Of a stretch of 64,000 nucleotides of DNA, positions 27,748 through 55,503 are shown piece by piece. The stretch is from Candidatus Kerfeldbacteria bacterium CG15_BIG_FIL_POST_REV_8_21_14_020_45_12 (GTDB taxonomy: Bacteria; Patescibacteriota; Patescibacteriia; UBA9570; XYC2-FULL-38-9): contig PFGC01000041.1 of assembly GCA_002781785.1 (NCBI GenBank), positions 145 through 64,144 on the forward strand, written 5' to 3'. The notes below the pieces were generated by a model. That model made no database searches and was not told the DNA's origin. It worked only from the letters and a program-made list of their open reading frames with translations. A program made the position numbers and the translations under genes. Position 1 is the first letter of the stretch. The number at the start of each line of letters is the position of its first letter.

Positions 27748-27778
27748 CAGCCTCCTAATTGGAGGCTGTTTTTATTTT
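27748..27778 (+). terminator. Rho-independent terminator at a convergent gene junction
   Basis: Stem CAGCCTCC (27748-27755), 5-nt loop, stem GGAGGCTG (27761-27768), then TTTTTATTTT. Located 9 nt after the aminotransferase stop codon. Confidence 0.6.
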
Positions 27779-30043: not shown

Positions 30044-31114
30044 ATGGACACTTCCCACATTCTGTTCCTCACCCGTAAATTCCCGCCTTCTCGTGGCGGC
30101 ATGGAAACATTTAGCTACGAGCTAACCCAACGGTATCCAGGCTCTAGCGAAGTTGTACACTATGGTCATAAACAACATGACATTATTTGGGCTGCACCAA
30201 TGTTGTTATTCTCAGCTTTTAGTCGCCGCAAACAAGTTAATCTAATCCATTTAGGAGATCTCGTTCTAGCACCGCTGGCCCCCTTTCTAAAACGTTGGTT
30301 TAAAGTTCCAGTTGTAGCCACCGCTCACGCCTTGGAATTAACTCATGGCAATCGCCTATTGCAGTGGTTAATTAATAGATCGCTACCCGATCTAACACAC
30401 ATAGTAGCTGTTAGCGACTTCACCAAAGATTTACTTATAAGTCGCGGTGTCTCTCTTGATAAAATTTCTGTCATCACCCACGGAATTGAACCTCCTATTG
30501 AACTAGACCGCAATCAAGCCCGCGCCACTCTTTCTACTAAACTAAAATTAACCAGCGATGATGTCCATCGTCCACTACTTCTCACCGTTGGTCGACTGGT
30601 AAAACGAAAAGGGGTGGCTTGGTTTATAGAAAATGTCCTTGATACCTTAGGGGCATCTCCCATATATTTAATTTCTTCAGACGGTCCTGACAAAACTGAC
30701 CTTGAAAAACTAGCTACCACCAGACCTAATGTTCGTTTACTAGGCAAGGTTGATGACATGTTTCTCAGCACGCTGTATGCCGGAACAGATATTTTTATTA
30801 TGCCCAACATTGATATTACCGGTGACGCTGAAGGCTTTGGCTTTGTCGCCATCGAGGCTGCAGCTCACGGGCTGCCGGTAGTGGCAGCCCGTCTAGATGG
30901 CATCCCTAACGCAATTCACGATGACAAGAATGGCAAACTAGTAACCCCAGGTGCAGCTGATGAATTTATTTACGTTATTAATCAATGGGTAAATAACCCG
31001 CAAGACAGACAAGACTTTGGCCAAGCCGCTAAAGCCTATACCGTACGTCATTTTTCCTGGGACGATAGAGTCAAGCAATATCAAGAGTTGTTTTTATTAC
31101 TTTTAAAGCCATGA
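30044..31114 (+). CDS. Glycosyltransferase family 4
   Basis: GDAEGFGFVAIEAAAHGLPVVAARLDGIP (E-x7-E). Confidence 0.8.
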   Translation: MDTSHILFLTRKFPPSRGGMETFSYELTQRYPGSSEVVHYGHKQHDIIWAAPMLLFSAFSRRKQVNLIHLGDLVLAPLAPFLKRWFKVPVVATAHALELTHGNRLLQWLINRSLPDLTHIVAVSDFTKDLLISRGVSLDKISVITHGIEPPIELDRNQARATLSTKLKLTSDDVHRPLLLTVGRLVKRKGVAWFIENVLDTLGASPIYLISSDGPDKTDLEKLATTRPNVRLLGKVDDMFLSTLYAGTDIFIMPNIDITGDAEGFGFVAIEAAAHGLPVVAARLDGIPNAIHDDKNGKLVTPGAADEFIYVINQWVNNPQDRQDFGQAAKAYTVRHFSWDDRVKQYQELFLLLLKP

Positions 31115-32550
31115 ACCTAACAAAGGTTGTTTTCAAAAATTTTTCCTACATCATGATCGGACGTGTCCTCTTTCGTTTCTTGAATGCGGCCATCATGATC
31201 TATGCCGCTCGCTATCTTGGAGTGGACCGCTACGGAATGTTTGAAACCGCCCTAGCCTGGGCCAATGCGTTTTTGGCGCTCAACGACGTTGGCATGAGTA
31301 CACTAATCGTACGAGAGGGGGCTCGAGACGAATCAAAAATTGCTGTCTATTTTGGAAACACTTTGTTAGTTGAAGTTATCTTCTCCATTATTTTGTACGC
31401 GACCGTCTTATTGGTCGGTTTTGGAATTGGTTACAACCACACTACCATGGTTCTACTAGCCATCCTCGGAGCCGGAGGTTTAATCTTTGAGTTCCGCAAA
31501 GTCATGCGCGGAATCTTCCGAATTTATCTTAAACTAAAAGTGGTGGCCTTCCTAGAAGTTCTCAACGGCATTATTTATTTCCTTTTAACCTTGTGGATTG
31601 TCACCACGATCAAGGACATCGACGTCGGTCTACTGGGTATTGCTCACGCCAATTTGTGGACAAACGTGCTCTTTGTCGCAGCTTTGTTCTTTTACACTCT
31701 ACGCTTCGTCAAACCAAAAATTGACCGCAAGCAAATCTGGCCAATGATCAAGCAGTCATACGTATTCACCTTGTACAATTTATTTTTCATGTTGTACTTC
31801 CAAATTGATCAGATAATTCTCTCCATCCTCAAACCGGCTAGTGAGGTTGGCATCTATTCGGCCTCAGCAAAATTAGTTGGTGCATTTCTGTTTATTCCAG
31901 TCATGCTCTTTCAAGTCACCATGCCAATTATGTATCAAGCTAGTCGTGAAGACATGCCAAGATACAAGCGTATTAATCATATGAAGTGGCGCTATCTAGC
32001 TGCCTTCGGCATTCCCGCTGGAGTTGGCCTTTGGTTACTAGCTCCACAAATCATCAACTTTGTGTTTGGAGAAAAGTATCTTGCCTCTATTCCAGTGCTT
32101 GCAGTCATGGGTTGGTTTTTAGCCATTCGCTTCACTGCGCTGTCTCAAGGCAATTCTCTAACCACCACTGATCGCCAAGGCCTACGCGCCTTCATTCAAA
32201 TTCTCTCCCTAGTCTTAAATATTGTTCTGGACATTATCTTGATCAAAAAATATGGAGCACTTGGGGCTGGTATAGCCACCTTAATCACTGAAGCCTGCAT
32301 CGCCACGTCTTATCTATATTTTTCAGCCAAGTATTTGGAAGAAAGCGTGCTCAAAAACAGCTTATCCTTGCTGCCAATTGTGGGAGCAACGCTAGTTATG
32401 AGCCTGGCTGTTTTCTTGGCAAAAGACCAACTGCATGTTATCTTTGTGATGCTTTTAGGCGTAATAACCTACCTCCCCTTCCTCTGGATTTTTAGGTTCT
32501 TTCGCCCCTACGACAAACAGATTTTGCAGCAAATAATGAGCAAGCCATAG
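31111..32550 (+). CDS. Wzx-like oligosaccharide flippase (MOP superfamily polysaccharide biosynthesis protein)
   Basis: N-terminus NFSYIMIGRVLFRFLNAAIMIYAARYLGVDRYG is typical of Wzx. About 12-14 TM helices. Confidence 0.7.
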   Translation: MNLTKVVFKNFSYIMIGRVLFRFLNAAIMIYAARYLGVDRYGMFETALAWANAFLALNDVGMSTLIVREGARDESKIAVYFGNTLLVEVIFSIILYATVLLVGFGIGYNHTTMVLLAILGAGGLIFEFRKVMRGIFRIYLKLKVVAFLEVLNGIIYFLLTLWIVTTIKDIDVGLLGIAHANLWTNVLFVAALFFYTLRFVKPKIDRKQIWPMIKQSYVFTLYNLFFMLYFQIDQIILSILKPASEVGIYSASAKLVGAFLFIPVMLFQVTMPIMYQASREDMPRYKRINHMKWRYLAAFGIPAGVGLWLLAPQIINFVFGEKYLASIPVLAVMGWFLAIRFTALSQGNSLTTTDRQGLRAFIQILSLVLNIVLDIILIKKYGALGAGIATLITEACIATSYLYFSAKYLEESVLKNSLSLLPIVGATLVMSLAVFLAKDQLHVIFVMLLGVITYLPFLWIFRFFRPYDKQILQQIMSKP

Positions 32551-32551
32551 C

Positions 32552-33283
32552 ATGCGTACAATAATAATGGCCGCTGGTGCCAGTCGACGCCTTCAACCGC
32601 TCACTGACACTATTCCAAAAACCTTACTTAAGCTCGGTGAAAAAACTATCTTAGCTAGGATTTTAGATACAGCCAGAGAGCAAAGTTTGACGCATTTTGA
32701 CATCGTCACCGGACACGGGCATCCAGCCGTAGAGGAATTTGCTGCTGAATATCAAACTGCTCACCCCGACATCAACATCAATCTCATTTATAACGATCAG
32801 TACGACTCCACTGGTAATATTGTTTCACTTCAATATGCCAACCAGGCCTTCGACGAAGATTTTCTAATTGTAAACTCGGACACTATATTCCATGCTGACA
32901 TTCTCAAGCGCTTGCTAGATTCAAACCACCCCAATGCTATGGTGGTAGACAACGTCAGCCAGCTTGGAGAAGAAGAGATGAAAGTGCTCACCGATGACAA
33001 AGAAGCCATTACGCACATTCACAAAAGTCTCGACCCAGACTCCGCTACTGGTGAGTACATTGGCATCATGAAGTTATCTAAGGATGTAAAACAGAAATTG
33101 CTCAACAGTCTTGATCAAACTATAAACAAGGACAATTCTCTTTACTATGAAGACGCCTTGCAGCATTTGATCACCGACAACGGGATTACCATTCACCCAG
33201 TCTATACCGATAGTCTGCCAAGTATGGAAATCGATACTCCAGAGGACCTAGATGACGCTGGCAAGTTAATTCTAGAAATGTAA
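32552..33283 (+). CDS. Nucleotidyltransferase (LicC/MobA-like cytidylyl/sugar-phosphate nucleotidyltransferase)
   Basis: IIMAAGASRRLQPLTDTIPKTLLKLGEKTIL resembles the LicC N-terminus (ILAAGLGTRLRPLTENTPKAL). Confidence 0.65.
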   Translation: MRTIIMAAGASRRLQPLTDTIPKTLLKLGEKTILARILDTAREQSLTHFDIVTGHGHPAVEEFAAEYQTAHPDININLIYNDQYDSTGNIVSLQYANQAFDEDFLIVNSDTIFHADILKRLLDSNHPNAMVVDNVSQLGEEEMKVLTDDKEAITHIHKSLDPDSATGEYIGIMKLSKDVKQKLLNSLDQTINKDNSLYYEDALQHLITDNGITIHPVYTDSLPSMEIDTPEDLDDAGKLILEM

Positions 33284-33285
33284 AT

Positions 33286-34368
33286 ATGTCAGTCATTCTT
33301 CGTAACATTCAAATCCCTCTCTTTATCAAAATAGAGACTGGTTGCTTGCAGAACATTCGACAAATTCTCGACGAACATCATTTGCATTTTCAAAAACCGT
33401 TAGTTCTGTCTGAAGAACACATTCTAGCCCTCGGCGGTAATGATGTTGTAAATGCTCTCGGCAATCCCGCCACAGTTTTGATGAAAGAAAATTCCATCGC
33501 GGCTGGCGACCGCCTAGCCAAGGAAATTAGAGAAAAGGGCAACGATCTGATTGTCAGCGTCGGCGGTGGCCGCACGCTTGACCTTGGTAAATACGCTGCT
33601 ACTAAAGCCGGTGTAAATTACATTTCAATACCAACCTCACCATCTAACGATGGTATTTGCTCTCCGGTAGCCGTACTGACAGACGACGACATGACCAAGA
33701 GCCTTCCTGTCAATATGCCTATTGGAATATTTGTCGACACCTCTATCCTAACCAGCGCTCCGATACACAACATTAGAGCTGGCATTGGAGATCTCATTTC
33801 AAATATGTCTGCTATAAACGACTGGAGACTAGCTTACCACGACGGCAAAGAAAGCATGGATGACTTTGCTGCCTCTATCGCTTTTTCCGCCGCTCAGCTA
33901 ATTCACGAAACCTGCCGCGGTGTAAATATAAATATTTCCGATGAAGCCTTTCTAGAAAAACTTGTCCATGGATTGATTCTGTCTGGAATTGCCATGAACA
34001 TTGCTGGCAACAGTCGTCCCTGTTCGGGTTCAGAACACGAAATCTCCCACGCTATTGATGCACTATTTCCTGGCAGATCTATTCATGGACTGCAGGTTTC
34101 TTATGGAACCTTACTTGGCTGCTTCCTCAGAAAAGAGGAGGACCTGCTGGTTGATTTAGTAGATTTTTTTGCTCGCGTTGAGCTGCCTGCCACTCACCAA
34201 GAACTAGGCCTTACCGATGATGAAATGATCGATGTGTTTCTAAAAGCTCCGGAAACTCGCCCAGAGCGATATACTATTTTGGAAAAACTACACATCACTG
34301 ACAGAGGTGCGGTAGCTAAACTGCTCAATGAATACAATGCCCACATCGCCGAACTCCAAGGTAAATAA
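33286..34368 (+). CDS. sn-glycerol-1-phosphate dehydrogenase-like enzyme (G1PDH/AraM family, DHQS-like iron-ADH superfamily)
   Basis: GGGRTLDLGKYAA (NAD site), IPTSPSNDGICS, DTSILTSAPIHNIRAGIGDLISN, metal-ligand region SGSEHEISHAID and HGLQVSYG. This pattern fits the G1PDH/glycerol-DH branch. Confidence 0.55.
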   Translation: MSVILRNIQIPLFIKIETGCLQNIRQILDEHHLHFQKPLVLSEEHILALGGNDVVNALGNPATVLMKENSIAAGDRLAKEIREKGNDLIVSVGGGRTLDLGKYAATKAGVNYISIPTSPSNDGICSPVAVLTDDDMTKSLPVNMPIGIFVDTSILTSAPIHNIRAGIGDLISNMSAINDWRLAYHDGKESMDDFAASIAFSAAQLIHETCRGVNINISDEAFLEKLVHGLILSGIAMNIAGNSRPCSGSEHEISHAIDALFPGRSIHGLQVSYGTLLGCFLRKEEDLLVDLVDFFARVELPATHQELGLTDDEMIDVFLKAPETRPERYTILEKLHITDRGAVAKLLNEYNAHIAELQGK

Positions 34369-35134
34369 TCAGGAAAATCCACGCTGGATAATAAAACGGG
34401 AAGATCCGCTCTATGGCCACTACGTTGTCCAGCAATTAGCCTACTTTGTAGTTAGGTTAATAGACCGAACCCCGATCACGCCAAATTTTGTCACAGCGCT
34501 CTCCTTTCTCACCGGCCTTACTGGCGCTGTACTTTTTGCTCTGGGCCAGCGTCACTATTTTATCTGGGGAATACTTTTTATAAACTTAGCCTTAATCCTT
34601 GATTGTGTTGATGGCCAGCTTTGCCGTAGACGTGGCACAGGCTCTAATTTTGGGGCTTGGCTTGACTACCATACGGATAAACTAAAAGACGGCGCCGTTC
34701 TACTTGGCTGGACCATTGGTGCCTACAAACTAGCCAGTGCTCATTCGGCAGAAATTGTTAGTAGCTTTCCGCAAACCTCTCTAGCCATACTTTATTTTAC
34801 AGTAGCTTTCTTAGCTATCTTCTTTCAATTTCTCCGCAATATCACAGCGCTTAATCGAGACATTAATACCCTGCAAAAAACCGGTCACAAAGATGAACCA
34901 AGAACCTTCTACGACACCTCAGCAAATTCTGGCCAATTCATCCGTTCACTCAAGCACTCTCTACTATTTAAGTATGCCGATCGCATCTTACTGTTTACTA
35001 TCTTTGGCTTACTAGGGCTTTACTTTCAAGCAATTATCGTGTACGCTGCCCTGGCAATTTTTTACGCAACGCTCTCTGCCTTCCTTAATTATCGTGAAGG
35101 CTGGCGCGCCGACCAAGTAAAACAACCCCAATAA
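34328..35134 (+). CDS. CDP-alcohol phosphatidyltransferase-family membrane enzyme
   Basis: Family motif D-G-x2-[AC]-R-x8-G-x3-D-x3-D is present as LDCVDGQLCRRRGTGSNFGAWLDYHTDKLKD. Multiple TM helices. Confidence 0.75.
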   Translation: MNTMPTSPNSKVNNQENPRWIIKREDPLYGHYVVQQLAYFVVRLIDRTPITPNFVTALSFLTGLTGAVLFALGQRHYFIWGILFINLALILDCVDGQLCRRRGTGSNFGAWLDYHTDKLKDGAVLLGWTIGAYKLASAHSAEIVSSFPQTSLAILYFTVAFLAIFFQFLRNITALNRDINTLQKTGHKDEPRTFYDTSANSGQFIRSLKHSLLFKYADRILLFTIFGLLGLYFQAIIVYAALAIFYATLSAFLNYREGWRADQVKQPQ

Positions 35135-35137
35135 ACT

Positions 35138-35365
35138 ATGCAAATTTCTCTACCTGACGATCTCGTCAAGCAACTAGAAAGCCGCGTTAGCGCCTCAACC
35201 GAATTTTCTACGATTGAAGAGTACGCTATCTACGTACTAACAGAGGTCTTAAAGCAGACCGACGACTCAAGTACTAAAAATAGCACTGATTCAGATGACA
35301 ATTACACTAAAGACCAAGAAGACGCTGTCAAAGACCGACTCGAGAGCTTAGGCTATTTAGATTAA
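35138..35365 (+). CDS. Small (75 aa) ribbon-helix-helix-like protein, paralog of 50824..51021
   Basis: N-terminus MQISLPDDLVKQLESRVS is RHH beta-strand plus helix-like. C-terminal tail VKDRLESLGYLD is shared with the ORF at 50824..51021. Tightly packed between neighbours, with a 3-nt gap upstream and a 2-nt gap downstream. Confidence 0.45.
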   Translation: MQISLPDDLVKQLESRVSASTEFSTIEEYAIYVLTEVLKQTDDSSTKNSTDSDDNYTKDQEDAVKDRLESLGYLD

Positions 35366-35367
35366 AC

Positions 35368-36051
35368 ATGCGCGCTGTCATCCTAGCCGCTGGGATGGGC
35401 ACACGTCTTGGTGGCGACGTTCCCAAACCCCTTACTCCGCTGATGGCAGATCGGACAATTATTGATTTACAAATTGCTAAACTAGAACCACTGGTCGGAC
35501 GAGACAACATTACAGTAGTCATCGGCTATGAGCAGGAACAATTCATGGACCGCTTTCCAGATCTTAATTTTGTAATAAACGAACAGTACCAGTTTACCAA
35601 TACCGCCAAGAGCTTACTACTGGCTCTTAAAACGATCAGCAACGAATCGGTACTTTGGATGAATGGCGATATCTTTTTTGATGACAGCGTACTCGACTAC
35701 CTTACCCAAGCCAGCGGATCAACCTGCCTAGTTGATACCAAGCAGTGCGGTGAGGAGGAGATAAAATATACAACCAACGAGCGTGGCACCATTGACCAGC
35801 TTTCCAAGCAGGTACAAAACGCTGAGGGAGAAGCTCTAGGGATAAATCTAATTGAAGCTACTGACCTAAGCCTGTTTACTGAACAGCTTGAGAGCGTCGG
35901 CGATAACGATTATTTTGAAAAGGCCCTCGAAGAACTTACAACTTCCGGGCGTTTGGAGCTGACTCCAGTCGATATTGAAACAGCTTTTTGCCAAGAGATA
36001 GACTTCCCAGAAGACCTCGCGCAAGTTCAAGCCCATCTTGAGGCCAATTAA
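35368..36051 (+). CDS. Nucleotidyltransferase (MobA/LicC-like)
   Basis: MRAVILAAGMGTRLGGDVPKPLTPL. Confidence 0.65.
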   Translation: MRAVILAAGMGTRLGGDVPKPLTPLMADRTIIDLQIAKLEPLVGRDNITVVIGYEQEQFMDRFPDLNFVINEQYQFTNTAKSLLLALKTISNESVLWMNGDIFFDDSVLDYLTQASGSTCLVDTKQCGEEEIKYTTNERGTIDQLSKQVQNAEGEALGINLIEATDLSLFTEQLESVGDNDYFEKALEELTTSGRLELTPVDIETAFCQEIDFPEDLAQVQAHLEAN

Positions 36052-36123: not shown

Positions 36124-37755
36124 ATGAAGAAAAAAACCGTTGTTTTGGGGCTCGATGGAGCTACTTGGAAGATCCTAAAACCTTTTGCTGAAGCCGGCTA
36201 CATGCCGACATTAAAGGGATTACTTGAACGTGGCGTCCACGGCGAACTAGAATCCACCATGCCAGCCATGACTGCTCCGGCTTGGGTGACTTTCGCAACC
36301 GGAAAACATCCTGGTAATCACGGCGTGTTTGATTTTATGTTGCCTACCGACAGTTTGGGCAAGATGAAGTTTGCCACTGCAAAAGATATTCGTGATAAAA
36401 CACTCTACGAAATACTAAAAGACGAAGGATATACTCCAATTTTAGTTAACCTTCCCGCTACCTGGCCACCCAAGCGTGATGACATTATTACCATTACTAG
36501 CTTGCTAACCCAGGGCGACCAGTGGGTCTATCCAGCTTCTTTAAAGGAGGAATTCCCAGAACTAGCTAAGTACCGCCTAACTCCAGACGAGAGCCTGAGG
36601 GTGGCCGAACGCCGTGACGAGTACATCGTTGATCTACTTGCCCATCTTGAAGAGCAAATGGCAGCAGTTAGACGTTTATTTACTGAGAAACCCTGGGACT
36701 TTTTCTTCTACCTATTCTCACACTCAGATTGGATCTCGCACCTGGCTTACACTGAGCTCGAAGAAGAACATGAACCCAAAGCCAGGGCCATTTTTGAAAG
36801 AATTGACCAACACCTCAAGTGGTTTACAGAAAATATTCCAGCAGACACTAATTTAATCTTACTGTCTGATCATGGTTTTACGGCCTACAAAAAAGTTTTT
36901 TACTTTAACCGGTGGCTTGAGCAGGAAGGATATCTTAAGACCAACAAGGAAGGTGATAAAATGCGCGGTGCGGCAACTCGACGCGCGAAGGAGAGCGATA
37001 AAATTACGGCTACAAAAAAACGCGTAAACATTGGCACCGGCCTGCTTCGATTTCTTGATACTTTCCCCTTCTTAAAACCAGTTGCTAAGTGGTCCTACCA
37101 CTCAGTTATAAAAAAGTACCTACCAATAAATTTAAAAGTTAATGTTGGTATAGACTTTCCAAATACCAAAGTTTGCTTTCCTAAGGGTAGTTATATTACC
37201 AATGGTTATATCAATAAAAACTGGGTTTATACCGATGGTTGTATAAGTCGCGAAGAATATCCCAAATTAGTCGAAGAGCTGGCAGAGAAAATACGCAATA
37301 TCAAAGATCCGTCTGGCAATCCGGTAGTGGCTAAAGTAATGACTCGTAAAGAGGTTTACGGTGACACTGCTCCTGATGAGGCTCCAGATATTTTCTTTGA
37401 ACTATCGGACTACTGGCTGATTGGTAATTTTAATTCTAGCTCGCTATTTGATGAAGAGATAGAAAACAAACATGGCAAGATGGGTATTTTTCTAGCCGTC
37501 GGACCAGATTTTGAAACAGACGCCGATGTGGAAGGGCTAAAAATGCAAGATGTCACTCCAACTATTTTACATCTATTAGGTTTACCAGTACCTGAAGACT
37601 GCGACGGTCAGGTAGCCCACGCTCTGTTTAAAGCTGGCTCTGAGCCAAGAGAGCGTAGCGTTAACTTTGGAGCACCATCCAGACTAGACGATAAACCTAG
37701 TGAGTCCAGTGAAAAAACTTCTTTGGCCAAAGCAATTGGAAAAATAAAGCTCTAA
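36124..37755 (+). CDS. Alkaline-phosphatase-superfamily enzyme, NPP/type-I-phosphodiesterase-like (543 aa, cytoplasmic)
   Basis: N-terminus KTVVLGLDGATWKIL and the nucleophile region TMPAMTAPAWVTFATGKHPGNHGVFDF. This parallels the NPP motif T-F-P-N-H..TG.YP..HGI. Has no signal peptide. Paralog of 47244..48635. Confidence 0.7.
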   Translation: MKKKTVVLGLDGATWKILKPFAEAGYMPTLKGLLERGVHGELESTMPAMTAPAWVTFATGKHPGNHGVFDFMLPTDSLGKMKFATAKDIRDKTLYEILKDEGYTPILVNLPATWPPKRDDIITITSLLTQGDQWVYPASLKEEFPELAKYRLTPDESLRVAERRDEYIVDLLAHLEEQMAAVRRLFTEKPWDFFFYLFSHSDWISHLAYTELEEEHEPKARAIFERIDQHLKWFTENIPADTNLILLSDHGFTAYKKVFYFNRWLEQEGYLKTNKEGDKMRGAATRRAKESDKITATKKRVNIGTGLLRFLDTFPFLKPVAKWSYHSVIKKYLPINLKVNVGIDFPNTKVCFPKGSYITNGYINKNWVYTDGCISREEYPKLVEELAEKIRNIKDPSGNPVVAKVMTRKEVYGDTAPDEAPDIFFELSDYWLIGNFNSSSLFDEEIENKHGKMGIFLAVGPDFETDADVEGLKMQDVTPTILHLLGLPVPEDCDGQVAHALFKAGSEPRERSVNFGAPSRLDDKPSESSEKTSLAKAIGKIKL

Positions 37756-39559: not shown

Positions 39560-40246
39560 CTAACCTCGCTGACTTAAGCGATAGGCTGAAGACAATTGTT
39601 TTAATACTAACGGAATACTAACTAGCAAGAAAATCCACAAGGCTACATATTCCAAATTTACCACCACAGCCAGACTGACTAAGTAAATAGTCACATCAAC
39701 AGTGCCAATGTAAACATTTTTGGAAATAAATATCTCAGAAGTTCTGGTGGTGGGCCAAGAACTCTTTTTTGCTTCTCGCAGGTAAGACACTAAAAGTAAT
39801 CCAATGATAGCGCCGGCTCCGACTACAATTACCCAAACACTAGTCTGCTGATAGGTATACCAATATGCTGTCATTGCCCCAAACATCATAATTTCCTTGA
39901 AGCGATCAAAAACGGAATCAAGCCAGGCTCCAAATTTAGAACTTAAGTTTGTAATCCTGGCCACCTCTCCATCCGAGCAATCAAAAGCAAAACTTAACTG
40001 TAATAAAACCGCTCCAGCAAACCTCCACCAATAGCCTGGGAATATCAATAAAATACAAGCAACCACCGCTAGAAAAAACGAAATTACTGATACCATGTTA
40101 GGAGTCACTGCTGGCCAAAACCGCACGAATAAATAAGTAATTACCTGCGAAATTTTTCTCGTAATATAGTAAGAAAAGATCGAGTCTTGCGGCTTTTGAA
40201 ATGGTTTTACATCGGCAATACGTTTGATGTCATGCATAAAGATCAC
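39560..40246 (-). CDS. CDP-alcohol phosphatidyltransferase-family membrane enzyme (second copy)
   Basis: Family motif present as FAFDCSDGEVARITNLSSKFGAWLDSVFDRFKE. Shares FGAWLD with 34328..35134. Confidence 0.75.
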   Translation of the reverse strand: MIFMHDIKRIADVKPFQKPQDSIFSYYITRKISQVITYLFVRFWPAVTPNMVSVISFFLAVVACILLIFPGYWWRFAGAVLLQLSFAFDCSDGEVARITNLSSKFGAWLDSVFDRFKEIMMFGAMTAYWYTYQQTSVWVIVVGAGAIIGLLLVSYLREAKKSSWPTTRTSEIFISKNVYIGTVDVTIYLVSLAVVVNLEYVALWIFLLVSIPLVLKQLSSAYRLSQRG

Positions 40247-41979
40247 TCAACTGGTAAAAGTCTATAAATATGAACGTCTGTCTGAAAACTGTAATTCTGC
40301 ACTAAAACTTCTTCGTGCGGTTGGTCTTCAAGCCACAAATGTAGCCTCACCGAAGAGGTAGAATCTTCCCAGACATAGACATCATACCCCGCTTGCAACA
40401 TCTGATCAAAAAACTTTTCAACCTCTACCTGATCAAAATCAAAGCGTTGTTCTAAAGGATAACGAATTGATTTAAGTCCAGTATGGGCCTCAACCATCTC
40501 TGATAAGCCGTACTGCCAGTCACCTGACATCATTAAAACACTTTTTTCATTCACTGGAACACCATCAGGAATCGACCGCAAAGTTGCCAAGTCATCTGCC
40601 GAAATAGACTTATTCCGATAGACTTGGGCAGCTAGATTTTCTCTTACTTCAGCTATAGTTGGCTGATACGAAAAAATAACTCCACCAATAATTCCGACCA
40701 CTACAACTACATGCTGCCAACGTTTTTGAAACAACCGAAAAACCCCATCCGTTACCACCTCAACTACACCGTAAACACCTATCACAATTAAGGCTGGAAA
40801 CAGCGGTAAAATATAACGAGAATATGGATTTATCCACAACGAAAAGATGGTTAAAACACCTAATACCCACAAGCTCAACAGAGCGGCAGTTGGCCTAGAC
40901 TCACGCCATAAATAGAGTAAACCAAAAGCTACAAAAACAATGAAATATGGAAGCGGAGTAGCGTTTTTAATTATCTGCCAATAGTGAGGCAAGGCTCCTT
41001 TACCGGGACGGAACTTGCCATCGTTATCGAATAAATTATTTACCGACAATGTCTGAATGTGGTTGATATTAGAAAGCAGTACAACTTCGCTAGTGTCTCT
41101 TTTTTTAAACACCTCCTTATGCGCAGAGATGGTGGCAGAATTTTGAATAGTTGGAATTAGCGCAATAATCCAAGTTACGAAGAAAACGCCAACGTAGGGC
41201 AACGTGTGTTTAAGATTTGTCTTCCAAGTGTACTGCTTGTGCCACAAAGCAGAAATAGCATAAACCAGTGCTGCAGGCAGAACTACCCCACTAGTCTCTC
41301 GAATATTAAAAGCCATTCCAAAAACCAAGGCTGAAACTACCAACCAAATCGTAGCCACACCGCGCTTTACCTCGCGATGCTTTAATTGCCGCACAGCCAT
41401 CACCAAAGCTATCATAGTTACCAGCAAAAAGGTCATCGACGGAATTTCTCGCATCGGTTGCGATAAAGCGTATGCGTAATACAAGCTAGAAAATCCTAAG
41501 GCCAGCGACGACAGCAAACCAATGACATGTCTATATTGATGTTTTGGAAAAAGAGTCATCACTAACAAATACGTCAGCACCAGATTAGTCGTAGCCAACA
41601 GCGGCATTACTAGATAGAACCCGGAGCTATCTCCAACTATTCTTGCCGCCAAAGCCAGTAGCAAAGATGCTCCAACTGGATACTTCGAAGCGATCCAGCC
41701 CTCTTGGTTAATAAACTCGTGGTGGGTCGGCGTCAGCCAGCGCGCCAATTTCTCATCTCCAAAAAAATCAAAACCCATCTGAGCTAAATCATCATGGTAC
41801 ACCAACGGCTTGTCTTGAATCATGCGTCCAGCCAAATATATGTAACCAGCCGAATCATCTCCCCAGGTTCCCCAAGCATGATCATCAAAATAGATTATAC
41901 CGAACAGCAAGACTATGGCAGCAATAATTACCCCGCCAATCAGCCAATGTATCAAAGATTTTTTTTTGTGTGGTGTCAT
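40243..41979 (-). CDS. Polytopic membrane protein (578 aa), possibly a GT-C-like glycosyltransferase
   Basis: More than 10 TM helices, an N-proximal acidic loop (WGTWGDDSAGYIY, YHDDLAQMGFDFFGDEK), and a C-terminal soluble domain. Overlaps cysC and the CDP-OH transferase by 4 nt each. Confidence 0.45.
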   Translation of the reverse strand: MTPHKKKSLIHWLIGGVIIAAIVLLFGIIYFDDHAWGTWGDDSAGYIYLAGRMIQDKPLVYHDDLAQMGFDFFGDEKLARWLTPTHHEFINQEGWIASKYPVGASLLLALAARIVGDSSGFYLVMPLLATTNLVLTYLLVMTLFPKHQYRHVIGLLSSLALGFSSLYYAYALSQPMREIPSMTFLLVTMIALVMAVRQLKHREVKRGVATIWLVVSALVFGMAFNIRETSGVVLPAALVYAISALWHKQYTWKTNLKHTLPYVGVFFVTWIIALIPTIQNSATISAHKEVFKKRDTSEVVLLSNINHIQTLSVNNLFDNDGKFRPGKGALPHYWQIIKNATPLPYFIVFVAFGLLYLWRESRPTAALLSLWVLGVLTIFSLWINPYSRYILPLFPALIVIGVYGVVEVVTDGVFRLFQKRWQHVVVVVGIIGGVIFSYQPTIAEVRENLAAQVYRNKSISADDLATLRSIPDGVPVNEKSVLMMSGDWQYGLSEMVEAHTGLKSIRYPLEQRFDFDQVEVEKFFDQMLQAGYDVYVWEDSTSSVRLHLWLEDQPHEEVLVQNYSFQTDVHIYRLLPVE

Positions 41980-42661: not shown

Positions 42662-43444
42662 TTAAAGAAAGCGCCTTGGCTTGCCAGTCAACCACAAAGC
42701 ATCAAACATAGACATCAAGGCTCTAGCAATGCGTCGATGTTGTATACGAATAATAATTCCCTCTTCAGGCGTCACAAAGTGAACTACGTCGTCATGGATA
42801 AAAAACTCTTCAAATGGAAAGCGCTCCTCAACAATAGAGCGAAGTTGCCAATTTCGTTTGCAAAACAAAGCATACGTCTCAGCCGACATCATATTCGGAA
42901 TAGCAGAAATCATTTCGTCAGGGAAAATAGCTCGGGTAATTATTTTATTCTTAACAAAAAGTTCAACGATTCCGTGCCACTCATCATTCGTAAAACCACC
43001 TAAGTCGGCTTTGGCGTTAGCTCGACCTTGAATCACTCTAAACTCACTCCCAGAAGGGAGAGAGGCCAATTCATGATAGGTGTCATAATGAGCCTCATTA
43101 AAATCTCTAATAGTTACAACAGGCGCGGATTCGTCCACACTCTGCAATGATCCTAATTTAGGTACCAAGTTAGAAAAATCTGCGGTCCACTTTTCAAAGC
43201 GTTGCAAAAGTGATGCCGGTGAAGTTGCTGAAAAATATTTAACCCCACTAACTTCGTGCACTTTTATAACTAATAAACGATGGAGTTCATCTAATTGAAA
43301 ATATATAGCTGAACGCTTCATGCCAACTTTACGAGCTATGGTGGAAGCAGGCAAGCGTCCAAATTTTAACAACACAAAATAGATTTTGGAGTGCTGCTCA
43401 GTCAAGCCAAAATTCTTAAATATTCTAATCAAACGCTGTTCCAT
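42662..43444 (-). CDS. TrmB-like HTH transcriptional regulator with a C-terminal ligand-binding-like domain
   Basis: N-terminus LTEQHSKIYFVLLKFGRLPASTIARKVGMKRSAIYFQLDELHRLLVIK follows the TrmB wHTH pattern. Divergent from 43586. Confidence 0.5.
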   Translation of the reverse strand: MEQRLIRIFKNFGLTEQHSKIYFVLLKFGRLPASTIARKVGMKRSAIYFQLDELHRLLVIKVHEVSGVKYFSATSPASLLQRFEKWTADFSNLVPKLGSLQSVDESAPVVTIRDFNEAHYDTYHELASLPSGSEFRVIQGRANAKADLGGFTNDEWHGIVELFVKNKIITRAIFPDEMISAIPNMMSAETYALFCKRNWQLRSIVEERFPFEEFFIHDDVVHFVTPEEGIIIRIQHRRIARALMSMFDALWLTGKPRRFL

Positions 43445-43585
43445 AAAATTACTATATCAAAATATATCTACATTGTCAAAAATAATTAACAACAAAAAAA
43501 CATACTTTTTTAGGTGTAAATTTAAAAAATACAAAAAAGTCAATTCAAATCAACATAAAATAAACAATTCTGCTATCCTGTAGCC
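43445..43585. promoter_or_regulatory. AT-rich divergent promoter/operator region between the TrmB-like regulator and the ATP-grasp gene
   Basis: 141 bp of A/T-rich sequence with poly-A tracts between divergently oriented genes. Likely contains both promoters and the regulator's operator. Confidence 0.35.
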
Positions 43586-44992
43586 ATGAATAAAGACCTG
43601 CTGGATAAAAACAGCTCCAAACCCAGAACTATAGTGGTATGTCCAGGGATAACTTTCCCTGACTGGATATACGCTGAAATAACTGGTCTGCGATATTTTG
43701 AAGAAAGGCTTTTATATTTCCTATTTCATTGTAAATATCCTGGACAACGACTTATCTACCTTCTATCTGAAGCGCTAGATCCAGAAGAATTACACTACTG
43801 GATCACAACAGCTGCCGCTGCCATGAACATGAGTTCACAGGTTTTAAAAGAACGACTCACAATAATAACCGTCAACGACACATCAGACAAAGGGCTAGCC
43901 CAAAAAATTCTAGCTAGCCCCAAAGTGATTGAGTTAATTAAAAATGAAATAACTGAAACATCAAATACCTACCTAGAAGTTTTTGCTGTTAGCCAACATG
44001 AGATACAACTAGCAAAAGACCTAGGCATCCCCTATTGGGGAAATACACCAACAGCCCTTAAGTATGACCAAAAAGGCCCAGCCCGAGAACTAGCTAAGTC
44101 AGTTGGCGTAAAGGTAGCGCCAGGTAAAGAAAATATTAATAATCTTACCGGCGCCTATGCTGCCTGGAAAGAGCTTGGCGCGAAACCCGGAAAATACATG
44201 CTCAAAATAAATACTGGTGACGGGGGTGTTGGTCTCTGGAAAATAGACATGTCACAAAATAAGGTCTTAGATTTTACAAACTTCCGTAAAACTATTCCAG
44301 AGACCAAGCTCACCGATAGACTTGAAGAGCTCCTAAGTAACGAAGGTGGAATACTGGAACAATATATTGAGGCACCAATAAAAATATCTCCGAGCATTCA
44401 GTACTTAGCGTGGAGCGCTACTGATTTTACTTACATAGGAGCCCACGAGCAAGATCTAGCCGATGATAAATACGTTGGCTCCTATTTTCCAGCTGAATCA
44501 GATCAAGCCAGCAGTATGCGCGAGGCCGGTGACCTAATCATGCATGAATTAATAAAAAACGGTGTCCGAGGACGAGTGTCCATGGATTTTCTTCTCACTA
44601 AAAACTCCCCTGAAGAAAAGTGGACAACCTATCTCATAGAATTGAACATCAGAAAAGGAGGAACTACTCACACCGAACAATGGGCTGAATACCTAACTGG
44701 AGCTCGCTTAACAGAAGGCTTGCTTACCAGGCAAGATAATAAACCGGTTTACTATTACAGCAGCGAAAAAGGTAGTCTTCGGGATGAATTTTCTCAGCTG
44801 TCAACGAGCAACTTCCTAGCCCAAGTAAATAAGGCGGGCCTTGCTTACTCTCAGTTAACACAAAGTGGTATATTTTTCCATCTACTATCCCAACGAGCAC
44901 CATTTCATAAAGTCGGGTATACTGCCATTGGACGTACTCGCTCTGAAACCATAGAGCTGAAGAAAAAATTTGAAGAAAAATTTGGTAAATAA
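43586..44992 (+). CDS. ATP-grasp-fold ligase-like protein (468 aa) with an N-terminal extension
   Basis: C-terminal YLIELNIRKGGTTH matches the ATP-grasp Mg-binding E-x-N motif. A Gly-rich KINTGDGGVGLWKID segment lies upstream. Confidence 0.45.
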   Translation: MNKDLLDKNSSKPRTIVVCPGITFPDWIYAEITGLRYFEERLLYFLFHCKYPGQRLIYLLSEALDPEELHYWITTAAAAMNMSSQVLKERLTIITVNDTSDKGLAQKILASPKVIELIKNEITETSNTYLEVFAVSQHEIQLAKDLGIPYWGNTPTALKYDQKGPARELAKSVGVKVAPGKENINNLTGAYAAWKELGAKPGKYMLKINTGDGGVGLWKIDMSQNKVLDFTNFRKTIPETKLTDRLEELLSNEGGILEQYIEAPIKISPSIQYLAWSATDFTYIGAHEQDLADDKYVGSYFPAESDQASSMREAGDLIMHELIKNGVRGRVSMDFLLTKNSPEEKWTTYLIELNIRKGGTTHTEQWAEYLTGARLTEGLLTRQDNKPVYYYSSEKGSLRDEFSQLSTSNFLAQVNKAGLAYSQLTQSGIFFHLLSQRAPFHKVGYTAIGRTRSETIELKKKFEEKFGK

Positions 44993-44995
44993 GCT

Positions 44996-46078: not shown

Positions 46079-46119
46079 AATTACACTACGATTTTAAGCC
46101 AAGATCAGGCCAGATAAAA

Positions 46120-50831: not shown

Positions 50832-51021
50832 TATATCCTAATGATTTCAAGCGCTCCTTGATTTTAGCCTCATCATGATCTTGGTAAACAGCTCCGGCAG
50901 CTTTAAGTGAATCTCCCAGCATTTCTTGGACAAGCTGATCCACTGTGACTCCGCGCTGGGTAGCCATTTGATCTAGCTTTATAAATAAATCTTCACTGAT
51001 TTGTACGGGCTTATTCGTCAT
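50824..51021 (-). CDS. Small (65 aa) ribbon-helix-helix-like protein, paralog of 35138..35365
   Basis: QISEDLFIKLDQMATQRGVTVDQLVQEML is an RHH-like strand plus helices. C-terminal tail IKERLKSLGYID is shared with the ORF at 35138..35365. Overlaps sat by 8 nt and the GT2 gene by 11 nt. Confidence 0.45.
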   Translation of the reverse strand: MTNKPVQISEDLFIKLDQMATQRGVTVDQLVQEMLGDSLKAAGAVYQDHDEAKIKERLKSLGYID

Positions 51022-51976: not shown

Positions 51977-51985
51977 ATTCAGATA

Positions 51986-53311: not shown

Positions 53312-53399
53312 TGAAATTCATCTAATCTTGGCAAAAAAGAACAGTCTGTCCTCACTCAAAGTTCTTCATTTTGCTCGTGTATTTGTACAGGAAAGTCAG

Positions 53400-55438: not shown

Positions 55439-55503
55439 ATCTCCTCTTCAATCGCCAATTATCTCCTCCATATATCTTCTACAGTATAGAAGATTTCCAG
55501 GAC

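What the first reader, a model, noticed from the sequence alone, without database searches (positions are those of the whole stretch)
36124..37755. Cytoplasmic NPP-type AlkP enzymes in two different chemical contexts (CDP-alcohol module versus sulfate module)
Seen in sequence: both paralogs lack signal peptides and retain the NPP nucleophile region (T..PAW..T.GKH.G.HG).

One sits after a second LicC/MobA-like nucleotidyltransferase in the CDP-alcohol/G1P module. The other sits after sat-DHH.

Inference: a family of intracellular phospho- or sulfo-diester-handling enzymes dedicated to nucleotide-activated head groups (CDP-X, APS/PAPS). They could work by proofreading/hydrolysis or by group transfer. 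Either way they are unusual components of a glycan locus. Sulfatase-type AlkP members (LtaS/EptA) are the usual ones, and those are membrane-anchored and extracytoplasmic.
Basis: inference. Interest (0 to 1): 0.55.

Follow-up and report, generated by a model that had tools for sequence, protein, structure and literature searches.

The report
Cytoplasmic phosphatase-like enzymes tied to sulfate activation
Two intact, cytoplasmic alkaline-phosphatase-fold enzymes in a candidate-phylum bacterium are parts of one conserved gene cassette that activates sulfate but has no known sulfotransferase, so at least one of them is probably a new kind of sulfate-transferring enzyme.

Summary
ORF 36124..37755 (543 aa) and its paralog 47244..48635 (463 aa, minus strand) are PF01663 proteins. 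Neither has a signal peptide or membrane segment, and both keep the nucleophile Thr and all six metal ligands.

The "two chemical contexts" reading does not hold. In related Patescibacteria both genes sit in one compact cassette: nucleotidyltransferase, G1P dehydrogenase, CDP-alcohol transferase, long AlkP, then in opposite orientation CDP-alcohol transferase, GT-C, APS kinase, short AlkP, PAP phosphatase, ATP sulfurylase. The second nucleotidyltransferase is not conserved, and one relative has the two positions swapped.

The short type belongs to a very large family found in Bacteria and Archaea. It lies within 3 kb of sat or cysC in 72% of well-flanked loci and is fused to one of them in 13 of 80. 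Distant relatives of the long type lie in flippase-dependent glycan loci. Many of them end in a C-terminal peptide tag shared with a small protein encoded upstream of sat, and with cysC in Chloroflexota.

No canonical sulfotransferase occurs in the window.

Best reading (about 0.4): the long enzyme is a PAPS/APS-dependent sulfotransferase-like modifier of a lipid-linked intermediate. The short enzyme is either a second sulfotransferase or a pyrophosphatase-like part of the PAPS-synthesis unit.

The parts
36124..37755 (+). Long-type cytoplasmic NPP-fold AlkP enzyme (543 aa), the target. It carries an insert of about 70 residues, basic and aromatic (about 275-340), relative to the short type. 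It ends in a flexible linker followed by a C-terminal helix (530-539).
   Evidence: PF01663 E 3.8e-38. AF2 pLDDT 90.8. Foldseek matches NPP/PhnA. Catalytic columns invariant. hhalign against the short family E 4e-76, colinear.
47244..48635 (-). Short-type cytoplasmic NPP-fold AlkP enzyme (463 aa), paralog of the target. It belongs to the sat/cysC-linked family found in both Bacteria and Archaea.
   Evidence: PF01663 E 9e-47. More than 7,600 relatives, about 48% identical across phyla. Adjacent or fused to sat/cysC. AF2 pLDDT 94.6.
49656..50831 (-). ATP sulfurylase (sat).
   Evidence: PF01747 E 1.4e-87 and PUA_2.
48639..49655 (-). DHH-family PAP (3'-phosphoadenosine 5'-phosphate) phosphatase of the MtPAPP type.
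   Evidence: Its only PDB sequence match, over the full length, is 8a8k, the PAP phosphatase of M. thermolithotrophicus, E 2e-14. That enzyme is biochemically specific for PAP (PMC10322725).
41976..42602 (-). APS kinase (cysC). Its 3' end overlaps the start of the GT-C gene by 4 bp.
   Evidence: PF01583 E 5e-72. Coordinates.
40243..41979 (-). GT-C-like (PMT_2) polytopic membrane glycosyltransferase. It is a conserved cassette member.
   Evidence: PF13231 E 1.6e-8. Nine hydrophobic segments. Conserved next to cysC in L001, L002, L007-L009, L090 and L091.
39560..40246 (-). CDP-alcohol phosphotransferase b, with an intact DxxDGxxAR...GxxxDxxxD motif.
   Evidence: PF01066 E 1.3e-18. DIPPS/AIP-synthase-like by NCBIfam.
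34328..35134 (+). CDP-alcohol phosphotransferase a.
   Evidence: PF01066 E 1.3e-11. AIP/PIP-synthase-like by NCBIfam.
33286..34368 (+). sn-Glycerol-1-phosphate dehydrogenase-like enzyme (Fe-ADH_2).
   Evidence: NF002022 E 1e-81, 274 bits, below the equivalog cutoff of 413. PF13685.
32552..33283 (+). Conserved nucleotidyltransferase (NTP1), probably a cytidylyltransferase for the alcohol phosphate.
   Evidence: PF12804/PF00483. IPCT/AglF-like. Conserved in all cassettes.
35368..36051 (+). Second nucleotidyltransferase (NTP2). It is lineage-specific and absent from the compact cassettes.
   Evidence: PF12804. No counterpart between the CDP-alcohol transferase and the long AlkP gene in L001, L002, L091, L009 or L090.
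35138..35365 (+). Small protein of 75 aa: RHH-like N-terminus, acidic linker, and a C-terminal tag ...EDAVKDRLESLGYLD.
   Evidence: The family has 469 representatives.
50824..51021 (-). Second copy of the small tagged protein (65 aa), directly upstream of sat.
31111..32550 (+). Wzx-type flippase (Polysacc_synt) at the head of the CDP-alcohol operon.
   Evidence: PF01943 E 4.5e-24. Conserved in L002, L009 and L090.
51011..55950 (-). Arn-like pentose or uronate supply route upstream of sat: GT2 (51011..51976), UDP-glucose dehydrogenase (51986..53311), GalE-like 4-epimerase (53400..54341), UDP-glucuronate decarboxylase (54338..55438) and GtrA (55504..55950).
   Evidence: Pfam. UXS1 E 6e-75 and GalE E 3e-75. 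The same set is present in L090 and partly in L002.

Best explanation
The 543-aa protein is an active, cytoplasmic, two-metal, Thr-nucleophile enzyme of an uncharacterised NPP-fold clade (COG3379-type).

Shown: it is a core member, together with its 463-aa paralog, of one conserved Patescibacteria cassette. That cassette joins three things:
- sulfate activation (sat, cysC, an MtPAPP-type PAP phosphatase);
- a G1P / CDP-alcohol head-group route;
- a flippase plus GT-C surface-glycoconjugate route.

Inferred: because the cassette makes PAPS and disposes of PAP but encodes no recognisable sulfotransferase or PAPS reductase, at least one of the two AlkP paralogs is the PAPS- or APS-consuming sulfuryl-transfer enzyme.

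I propose that the long type is an acceptor-specific sulfotransferase-like enzyme. It would work on a membrane-bound, lipid-linked intermediate (a polyprenyl-phosphate sugar or a glycerophospho head group) at the cytoplasmic face before flipping. The likely mechanism is a covalent Thr50 intermediate with PAP or AMP as the leaving group.

The short type, which is highly conserved and often fused to sat, is part of the PAPS-synthesis unit. It is either a second sulfotransferase with a conserved acceptor or a pyrophosphatase-like enzyme that pulls the sulfurylase reaction forward.

A shared C-terminal peptide tag suggests that these proteins dock on a common partner.
For: One cassette:
- L001, L002/L003, L009 and L091 have NTP, G1PDH, CDP-alcohol transferase, long, then in opposite orientation CDP-alcohol transferase, GT-C, cysC, short, DHH, sat.
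- L090 has the order short, sat, long.
- At least 16 contigs carry both types, judged by matching contig lengths.

PAPS is made and consumed:
- sat and cysC are present.
- The DHH protein is a full-length homolog of the PAP-specific MtPAPP.

No canonical sulfotransferase or PAPS reductase:
- None appears in any ORF of 120 aa or more in the 64-kb window.
- Neither kind of family appears in the listed top 25 Pfam families of either batch (families matched by several of the 188 neighbour proteins of 33 short-type loci).

Linkage of the short type to sat/cysC:
- 58 of 80 loci, and 33 of 46 loci with good flanks, have sat or cysC within 3 kb. Thirteen are fusions.

Long-type relatives (35-44% identity):
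- They lie in flippase-dependent glycan loci: the Halobaculum AglB cluster, which also holds a sulfatase-like gene.
- A cysC, PHP, multi-AlkP polysaccharide cluster.
- Three tandem copies next to a GT-C gene.

Tag:
- Distant long-type members (P0083, P0091, P0100, P0109, P0111, P0112, P0120) and Verrucomicrobial long-like paralogs next to the short gene end in the same tag as the small protein encoded upstream of sat. cysC in Chloroflexota carries it too.

Catalytic residues are invariant.

Precedent: cytoplasmic AlkP-superfamily proteins Agl30 and Agl31 sulfate dolichol-phosphate-linked glycans in Halobacterium (PMC11980604).
Against: - There is no biochemical evidence. Sulfuryl transfer from PAPS by a Thr / two-zinc NPP-type site has no demonstrated precedent, since Agl30 and Agl31 are sulfatase-like rather than PF01663.
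- An intact bimetal site is most typical of phosphoryl transfer.
- In the window and the compact cassettes the long gene directly follows a G1PDH and CDP-alcohol transferase pair. That pair's AIP/PIP-synthase-like chemistry would normally need a phosphatase.
- The C-terminal tail of the window protein (SEKTSLAKAIGKIKL) does not score with the tag profile (E about 8). The tag link therefore rests on relatives that are 33-38% identical.
- A sulfotransferase could be encoded elsewhere in the genome, or be one of the unannotated proteins.
- The very high conservation of the short type and its stand-alone sat-short plus cysC units in Anaerolineae fit a housekeeping role such as pyrophosphatase at least as well as an acceptor-specific transferase.
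Confidence: 0.4

Rival explanations
1. The long enzyme is the phosphatase, or a phosphodiesterase, of the CDP-alcohol route. G1PDH makes sn-G1P, and NTP1 makes a CDP-alcohol. The AIP/PIP/DIPP-synthase-like transferase condenses it with a phosphorylated alcohol. The AlkP enzyme then removes the terminal phosphate, as Pgp phosphatases and DIPP or DGPP phosphatases do. Only the short paralog would deal with sulfate.
For: - The long gene immediately follows G1PDH and the CDP-alcohol transferase in the window, L001, L002, L009 and L091.
- CDPa and CDPb score best against AIP-, PIP- and DIPP-synthase models, whose products keep a phosphate.
- Phosphomonoester hydrolysis is the canonical chemistry of this superfamily, and the bimetal site is fully intact.
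Against: - Relatives at 35-44% identity occur, sometimes in triplicate, in glycan loci with no CDP-alcohol transferase or G1PDH.
- In L090 the long gene follows sat, not the CDP-alcohol transferase.
- Distant family members carry the same tag as the sat-associated small protein and cysC.
- This reading leaves the cassette with only the short enzyme as a possible sulfotransferase.
Confidence: 0.2
2. The long enzyme is a cytoplasmic phospho-alcohol (glycerophosphate) transferase. Thr50 attacks the beta-phosphate of CDP-glycerol, releases CMP, and passes glycerol-phosphate to a glycan or lipid acceptor. This is an LtaS/EptA/PigN-like mechanism moved to the cytoplasm, and it is the group-transfer option of the first reader.
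For: - The best PDB sequence matches are ENPP7 and ENPP6, which form phosphocholine-Thr intermediates.
- The CDP-alcohol-forming genes are adjacent.
- From general knowledge, PF01663 also covers the catalytic domains of GPI phosphoethanolamine transferases.
Against: - Two dedicated CDP-alcohol phosphotransferases already provide this chemistry in the cassette.
- Relatives in L086-L089 have no nearby CDP-alcohol-forming genes.
- The tag and sat linkage of the family are left unexplained.
Confidence: 0.12
3. The short paralog is not a sulfotransferase. It is the pyrophosphatase (or another housekeeping hydrolase) of a sat / short / cysC PAPS-synthase unit, analogous to the eukaryotic APS-kinase / sulfurylase / pyrophosphatase fusions. 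The variable, tagged paralogs such as the long type would be the only sulfotransferases.
For: - About 45-50% identity across Bacteria and Archaea.
- Sat-short fusions in at least 12 Chloroflexota loci.
- Stand-alone sat-short plus cysC units with unrelated neighbours in Anaerolineae.
- A recurrent second, more divergent PF01663 paralog beside it (12 of 80 loci).
- The short type never carries the tag (with one exception, L048).
Against: - A 460-aa enzyme with about 70 invariant residues, including many aromatics and a conserved cap domain, is more than PPi hydrolysis needs.
- In a Paenibacillus NRPS cluster it occurs with cysC but without sat.
- About 28% of well-flanked loci lack sat and cysC nearby.
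Confidence: 0.3
4. Both enzymes are proofreading or salvage hydrolases that cleave nucleotide-activated donors (CDP-X, APS/PAPS, pAp). This is the hydrolysis option of the first reader.
For: The fold is NPP-like, and NPPs hydrolyse nucleotide pyrophosphates, including PAPS (general knowledge). Foldseek matches.
Against: - PAP disposal is already covered by the MtPAPP-type DHH enzyme.
- Destroying the donors that the same operon makes is wasteful.
- It would not explain fusion to sat, tandem triplication in glycan loci, or the shared tag.
- The Asn that contacts the phosphoryl group in NPP is Phe71 in both families. The aromatic residue after the nucleophile Thr that stacks the nucleotide is Ala or Val here (residue roles from general knowledge).
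Confidence: 0.08

Closest known systems
Agl30 (VNG1056C) and Agl31 (VNG1057C) of Halobacterium salinarum, AlkP-superfamily sulfotransferases of N-glycosylation (PMC11980604)
   Same: They are AlkP-superfamily proteins encoded inside a glycan gene cluster. Agl31 is soluble and cytoplasmic. They act on lipid-linked glycans before flipping, in a cluster without a canonical sulfotransferase. A long-type homolog lies in the AglB cluster of Halobaculum beside a sulfatase-like gene.
   Different: Agl30 and Agl31 are described as sulfatase-like (closest structures 5G2U and 6HHM), not as PF01663/NPP-like. Their sequences were not on hand, so homology beyond the superfamily level is untested. Their sulfate donor and mechanism are unknown. 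No link to sat, cysC or a tag has been reported for them.
Nucleotide pyrophosphatase/phosphodiesterases (Xac NPP, ENPP1-7) and phosphonoacetate hydrolase PhnA (PF01663)
   Same: The Pfam family and core fold are the same, as are the Thr nucleophile and the six metal ligands.
   Different: - Sequence identity is only 12-17%.
- These proteins are cytoplasmic rather than secreted or ecto.
- The NPP Asn111 equivalent is Phe.
- They have a large conserved cap domain, and the long type has an extra insert of about 70 residues plus a C-terminal tail.
- PhnA model TIGR02335 scores 35 bits against a cutoff of 408.
LtaS / EptA / PigN-type phospho-alcohol transferases
   Same: They share the AlkP superfamily and a Thr nucleophile, work by group transfer through a covalent intermediate, and decorate surface glycoconjugates.
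   Different: Those enzymes are membrane-anchored with an extracytoplasmic catalytic domain, and they use phospholipid donors. The proteins here have no membrane segment, and the long type gives no PF00884 match.
PAPS-synthesis and recycling modules: sat, cysC, PAP phosphatase of Methanothermococcus thermolithotrophicus (PMC10322725) and eukaryotic APSK / ATPS / pyrophosphatase fusions
   Same: sat, cysC and an MtPAPP-type DHH phosphatase are clustered. An additional hydrolase-fold enzyme is fused or adjacent to sat.
   Different: The methanogen module feeds a PAPS reductase for assimilation and has no AlkP gene. Here the module sits in glycan or lipid head-group loci and always includes the short AlkP enzyme.

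Membership tests
PF01663 / NPP-type branch of the alkaline phosphatase superfamily | Pfam PF01663 match above the gathering score | tested here: met
   Long 132.4 bits and short 160.8 bits, against a cutoff of 23.
PF01663 / NPP-type branch of the alkaline phosphatase superfamily | Thr nucleophile plus six metal ligands (Asp; Asp and His; Asp and His; His) | tested here: met
   Long: D11, T50, D202, H206, D249, H250, H450. Short: D12, T50, D207, H211, D263, H264, H414. These are invariant or nearly so. They map onto ENPP7 in the alignment; H450 was placed by motif only.
PF01663 / NPP-type branch of the alkaline phosphatase superfamily | NPP-like three-dimensional core | tested here: met
   Foldseek against ENPP1/3/5/6/7, Xac NPP and PhnA: E 1e-16 to 1e-18, with TM-score normalised to the target up to 0.69-0.70.
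Classical NPP nucleotide pyrophosphatases (Xac NPP, ENPP1/3) | Secreted or ecto-enzyme with a signal peptide or membrane anchor | tested here: not met
   No hydrophobic N-terminus or membrane segment.
Classical NPP nucleotide pyrophosphatases (Xac NPP, ENPP1/3) | Asn that contacts the phosphoryl oxygen (Xac N111) and an aromatic residue after the nucleophile that stacks the base (Xac F91) | tested here: not met
   By motif alignment the N111 position is F71 in both families (40/40 long; 33/37 short), and the residue after T50 is Ala or Val. The residue roles come from general knowledge, and the mapping was not checked on coordinates.
Phosphonoacetate hydrolase PhnA | NCBIfam equivalog TIGR02335 above cutoff | tested here: not met
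   34.9 bits against a cutoff of 407.55.
Cofactor-independent phosphoglycerate mutase / phosphopentomutase | Metalloenzyme (PF01676) domain and sequence similarity to iPGM or PPM | tested here: not met
   No PF01676 match for either window protein. The best iPGM chain is 5vpu at E 0.24, over 45 residues only.
LtaS/EptA-type sulfatase-family phospho-alcohol transferases | N-terminal polytopic membrane domain plus an extracytoplasmic PF00884 domain | tested here: not met
   No membrane segments. No PF00884 match for the window proteins at E 1e-3.
Canonical PAPS sulfotransferases (Sulfotransfer_1/2/3/4 folds) | P-loop-like sulfotransferase fold and a Pfam match | tested here: not met
   Only PF01663 is matched. 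The proposal is that the enzyme works like a sulfotransferase, not that it belongs to this family.
Haloarchaeal AlkP-type sulfotransferases Agl30/Agl31 | Sequence homology to VNG1056C/VNG1057C | not testable with these tools
   The sequences were not retrievable. The paper describes them as sulfatase-like.
Haloarchaeal AlkP-type sulfotransferases Agl30/Agl31 | Loss of glycan sulfation on deletion and gain on heterologous expression | not testable with these tools
   This needs genetics and mass spectrometry.
Haloarchaeal AlkP-type sulfotransferases Agl30/Agl31 | AlkP-superfamily protein encoded in a glycan-assembly cluster that has a flippase and lacks a canonical sulfotransferase | tested here: met
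   Window. Halobaculum AglB cluster.

The most novel reading that the evidence does not exclude
Cytoplasmic NPP-fold (PF01663, COG3379-type) proteins form a previously unrecognised class of APS/PAPS-dependent sulfuryl-transfer enzymes, widespread in both Bacteria and Archaea. They would supply the missing sulfotransferases of Patescibacteria, many Archaea, Chloroflexota, Verrucomicrobia and others. They would be organised into a sulfation complex by a short C-terminal docking tag (...E..VK.RL..LGYLD). That tag is shared by acceptor-specific AlkP paralogs, by cysC in some phyla, and by a small RHH-like protein encoded upstream of sat.
Probability: 0.3. Interest if true: 0.85.

Novelty: new variant of a known kind. 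Interest (0 to 1): 0.68.

Why it matters
Sulfated glycans and lipids are known in Archaea and many bacteria, yet the sulfotransferases are mostly unidentified. The first archaeal ones, both AlkP-superfamily proteins, were reported only in 2025.

This work points to a much larger uncharacterised group in the NPP branch. The short type alone has thousands of members. It is physically linked or fused to ATP sulfurylase and APS kinase across both prokaryotic domains, so its function can be tested directly.

If the proposal holds:
- it would add a new chemistry to a textbook enzyme superfamily;
- it would allow sulfation to be predicted from genomes;
- it would show that minimal-genome Patescibacteria invest in a sulfated, glycerol-1-phosphate-containing surface structure.

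The shared C-terminal tag would be a new example of a peptide-organised metabolic module.

Tried and rejected
1. Link to Haloferax Agl7 (HVO_2046), which is needed for sulfation of dolichol-phosphate hexose. The papers give no family assignment and the supplement is not held. A homology search with the Halobaculum long-type protein returned no named Agl7. The link remains unestablished.
2. COG3379 in the literature: no relevant paper. No paper linking AlkP enzymes with sat/cysC was found.
3. Ascamycin cluster: a sulfatase-like gene, AcmG, is essential there next to sat/cysC genes (PMC4257720). My recollection that a PF01663 protein is involved was not borne out.
4. UDP-sulfoquinovose synthase idea for the epimerase/dehydratase genes near sat: rejected. 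They are UXS-like (E 6e-75) and GalE-like (E 3e-75).
5. Short type as the PAP phosphatase: disfavoured. The cassette already encodes an MtPAPP-type enzyme, and L087 has a PHP gene in the equivalent place.
6. Metagenome scan with the G1PDH protein, meant to test whether the CDP module occurs without the long gene: only one locus was returned, L091.
7. PDB sequence searches for the short enzyme and for the GT-C protein: no hits.
8. Tag profile against the C-terminal tail of the window protein: not significant (E about 8). I therefore do not claim that the window protein carries the tag.
9. Pseudo-enzyme reading: rejected by the invariant catalytic columns.
Full report
**Observation.** The ORF at 36124..37755 (+) encodes 543 aa and matches PF01663 at E 3.8e-38. 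A BLASTP of this protein against all window ORFs finds one paralog, 47244..48635 (-), 463 aa, 29% identical, E 3e-32. The paralog matches PF01663 at E 9e-47. Neither has a hydrophobic N-terminus or any membrane segment. Both start with the beta-strand that carries the first Asp ligand. A 100% identical protein is recorded from a Candidatus Kerfeldbacteria (Patescibacteria) genome on a 746-kb contig.

**What the proteins are.** In alignments of 40 long-type and 37 short-type homologs, the nucleophile Thr and all six metal-ligand positions are invariant or nearly so. They are therefore not pseudo-enzymes.

AlphaFold2 models are confident, with pLDDT 90.8 and 94.6. Their closest solved structures are ENPP1/3/5/6/7, Xac NPP and PhnA at 12-17% identity. 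iPGM is only a marginal sequence hit, and the PhnA equivalog model is far below cutoff.

The two families are colinear sister families (hhalign E 4e-76, 27% identity). They share a cap domain that is absent from classical NPPs. The long type has an extra insert of about 70 residues, basic and aromatic (about 275-340, lower pLDDT). It also has a flexible linker followed by a C-terminal helix. The position of the phosphoryl-contacting Asn of NPP is Phe71 in both families.

**One cassette, not two contexts.** Contigs from related Patescibacteria show a compact arrangement: NTP1, G1P dehydrogenase, CDP-alcohol transferase, long AlkP, then in opposite orientation CDP-alcohol transferase, GT-C-like membrane protein, APS kinase, short AlkP, DHH, sat. 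This holds for L001, L002/L003, L009 and L091.
- At least 16 contigs carry both types, judged by matching contig lengths.
- The second nucleotidyltransferase (35368..36051) is absent from all of these cassettes.
- In L090 the order is Wzx, NTP1, G1PDH, CDP-alcohol transferase, small ORF, short-like AlkP (only 36% identical to the window's short protein), sat, long. Neither cysC nor DHH lies within 10 kb.
- In the window, cysC, the GT-C gene and the second CDP-alcohol transferase overlap by 4 bp each.
- Upstream of sat lie GT2, UDP-glucose dehydrogenase, a GalE-like epimerase, UDP-glucuronate decarboxylase and GtrA. This is an Arn-like polyprenyl-phosphate-sugar route that fits the GT-C enzyme.
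- The window version is expanded by lineage-specific insertions: NTP2, a 140-aa protein, GNAT and B3_4 on one side; TrmB, an ATP-grasp-like protein, a GATase-like protein and an acidic 348-aa protein between the short gene and cysC.

**The sulfate module.**
- The DHH protein's only PDB sequence match is full-length, to 8a8k, the PAP phosphatase of Methanothermococcus thermolithotrophicus (E 2e-14). That enzyme belongs to a distinct DHH subfamily with high specificity for PAP (PMC10322725). The cassette therefore makes PAPS and removes PAP, which implies a PAPS consumer.
- No canonical sulfotransferase or PAPS reductase family is matched by any ORF of 120 aa or more in the 64-kb window.
- The short type has more than 7,600 relatives, about 48% identical in Chloroflexota, Acidobacteriota, Verrucomicrobiota, Planctomycetota, Firmicutes, and Bathy-, Micr-, Odin- and Njordarchaeota.
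- Of 80 genome loci, 58 have sat or cysC within 3 kb. Among the 46 loci with good flanks, the figure is 33 (72%). Thirteen are fusions: 12 sat-short and one short-cysC.
- Among 188 neighbouring proteins from 33 loci, the commonest families are UDP-glucose dehydrogenase, GT2, GT4, sugar-nucleotide epimerases/dehydratases, GHMP kinases and inositol-1-phosphate synthase. Neither canonical sulfotransferases nor PAPS reductases appear in the listed top 25 families of either batch.
- In Anaerolineae the sat-short fusion plus cysC stands among unrelated genes.
- In Paenibacillus campi the short type sits with an APS kinase, a 657-aa second AlkP and an MFS exporter inside an NRPS cluster.
- Twelve loci carry a second, more divergent PF01663 paralog.

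**The wider family of the long type.** Homologs at 35-44% identity occur in four settings:
- in the AglB (STT3) N-glycosylation cluster of Halobaculum roseum, with two flippases, GT4 genes, a sulfatase-family gene and another PF01663 gene;
- in a polysaccharide cluster that begins with cysC and PHP and contains three PF01663 genes and a sulfatase-like gene;
- beside flippases;
- as three tandem copies next to a PMT_2 GT-C gene in another Patescibacterium.

None of these loci has CDP-alcohol enzymes. The "sulfatase" neighbours have Thr where true sulfatases have the formylglycine Cys or Ser.

**A shared tag.** A small protein of 63-75 aa is encoded directly upstream of sat or of an AlkP gene in about 27 loci from both domains. 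It has an RHH-like N-terminus (sub-threshold hits only), an acidic linker, and a C-terminus of the form ...E..VK.RL..LGY(L/I)(D/E). The window has two copies, at 35138..35365 (+) and 50824..51021 (-). The family has 469 representatives in the 1.84-billion-protein library, almost all 64-106 aa.

The C-terminal motif alone is also found, always at the extreme C-terminus, on:
- cysC in Chloroflexota;
- long-like AlkP paralogs next to the short gene in Verrucomicrobia;
- one short-type protein (L048), a GT2 (L007) and an M20-like protein (L034);
- seven distant long-type members, including the Halobaculum protein (E 1e-8 to 1e-4).

Patescibacterial long-type tails, including the window's SEKTSLAKAIGKIKL, occupy the same position but do not score (E about 8). 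For the window protein this is therefore an analogy, not a demonstrated tag.

**Interpretation.**
- Shown: intact cytoplasmic NPP-fold enzymes; one conserved cassette; tight linkage of the short type to sat and cysC across both domains; a PAP phosphatase in the cassette; no canonical sulfotransferase; the tag.
- Inferred: at least one AlkP paralog is the sulfuryl-transfer enzyme.
- Proposal for the long type (confidence about 0.4): an acceptor-specific, membrane-proximal sulfotransferase-like enzyme acting on a lipid-linked intermediate before flipping. This parallels Agl30 and Agl31 of Halobacterium, AlkP-superfamily proteins shown by deletion and heterologous expression to sulfate dolichol-phosphate-linked glycans (PMC11980604).
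- Proposal for the short type: either a second sulfotransferase with a conserved acceptor, or a pyrophosphatase-like component of the PAPS-synthesis unit.
- Rivals for the long type: the phosphatase that completes the AIP/PIP-synthase-like CDP-alcohol step (0.2), a cytoplasmic glycerophosphate transferase using CDP-glycerol (0.12), and proofreading hydrolysis (0.08).

**Limits.** There is no biochemistry. Residue-level structural superposition was not possible. The sequences of Agl7, Agl30 and Agl31 could not be compared. The neighbour statistics rest on simple ORF calls. The sulfate acceptor is unknown.

Noticed in passing
window 35138..35365 (+) and 50824..51021 (-); also L001-L004, L008-L011, L018, L029, L033, L035-L037, L046, L055, L065, L066, L076-L078, L080, L081, L090, L091: A conserved small protein of 63-75 aa: RHH-like N-terminus, acidic linker, and C-terminal motif ...E..VK.RL..LGY(L/I)(D/E). 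It is encoded directly upstream of sat or of an AlkP gene in Bacteria and Archaea. The family has 469 representatives library-wide and no Pfam family.
   Followed up: yes
L012-L015, L017, L022, L027, L036, L082 (cysC C-termini); L058, L075, L084 (long-like AlkP); L048 (short); L007 (GT2); L034 (M20-like): The same motif of about 25 residues is appended to the extreme C-terminus of different enzymes of these loci, sometimes twice in tandem on cysC. This suggests a docking or regulatory peptide. Its partner is unknown.
   Followed up: partly
L012, L014-L017, L019, L020, L022, L027, L031, L067, L070; L035: ATP sulfurylase and the short-type AlkP are fused into one ORF of about 865 aa in Chloroflexota/Anaerolineae. 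A short-cysC fusion occurs in a Desulfocucumis contig.
   Followed up: yes
window 48639..49655 (-): An MtPAPP-type DHH PAP phosphatase, a subfamily described as archaeal, is present in Patescibacteria cassettes and in one archaeal locus (L018).
   Followed up: partly
window 33286..34368 (+), with 32552..33283, 34328..35134 and 39560..40246: A glycerol-1-phosphate dehydrogenase homolog (archaeal-type stereochemistry) sits in a CPR bacterium. It is coupled to a cytidylyltransferase-like gene and two CDP-alcohol phosphotransferases. This could be a Kennedy-like route to a phospho-(sn-1)-glycerol head group.
   Followed up: partly
window 42662..47166: There is an insertion inside the sulfate module that the compact cassettes lack: a TrmB-like regulator (42662..43444, -), an ATP-grasp-like protein with a PGM1_C domain (43586..44992, +), a weakly GATase-like protein (44996..46078, +) and an acidic 348-aa protein with no family (46120..47166, -).
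   Followed up: no
L034 3652..15239 (Paenibacillus campi): An NRPS cluster (acyl-CoA dehydrogenase-like, C-A-T module, amino-acid kinase, M20 peptidase-like) contains a short-type AlkP, an APS kinase, a 657-aa second AlkP and an MFS exporter. It may make a sulfated natural product without a canonical sulfotransferase.
   Followed up: partly
L089 10001..14998: Three tandem long-type paralogs (535 aa each) lie next to a PMT/PMT_2 GT-C gene, GT2 genes and a Wzx flippase in a Patescibacterium. No sat or cysC lies within 10 kb.
   Followed up: partly
L004 5137..6417; L087 2738..4033: Proteins annotated as PF00884 sulfatases next to sat, cysC or AlkP genes have Thr at the position of the formylglycine-forming Cys/Ser and lack the C/S-x-P-x-R motif. 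They are unlikely to be true sulfatases.
   Followed up: partly
L039, L049, L057 (Ktedonobacteraceae): A myo-inositol-1-phosphate synthase gene was identified directly upstream of the short, cysC, sat block in L057, and two further Inos-1-P_synth hits occur among the neighbours of the first batch, which includes L039 and L049. GHMP kinases recur near the block in other loci.
   Followed up: no
window 16983..18818 (-), 18939..21338 (+), 27772..29958 (-), 2596..4107 (-): Four large proteins (503-799 aa) in the glycan locus have no significant Pfam match. The 611-aa one has only a sub-threshold ParB_N hit.
   Followed up: no
window 21345..23150, 23017..24609, 31111..32550, 40243..41979, 63577..63996: The 64-kb window is almost entirely surface-glycan biosynthesis. 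It holds two PMT_2-type GT-C enzymes, two Wzx-type flippases, a GtrA, a Wzy_C fragment and many GT2/GT4 genes. That is a large investment for a small-genome organism.
   Followed up: no
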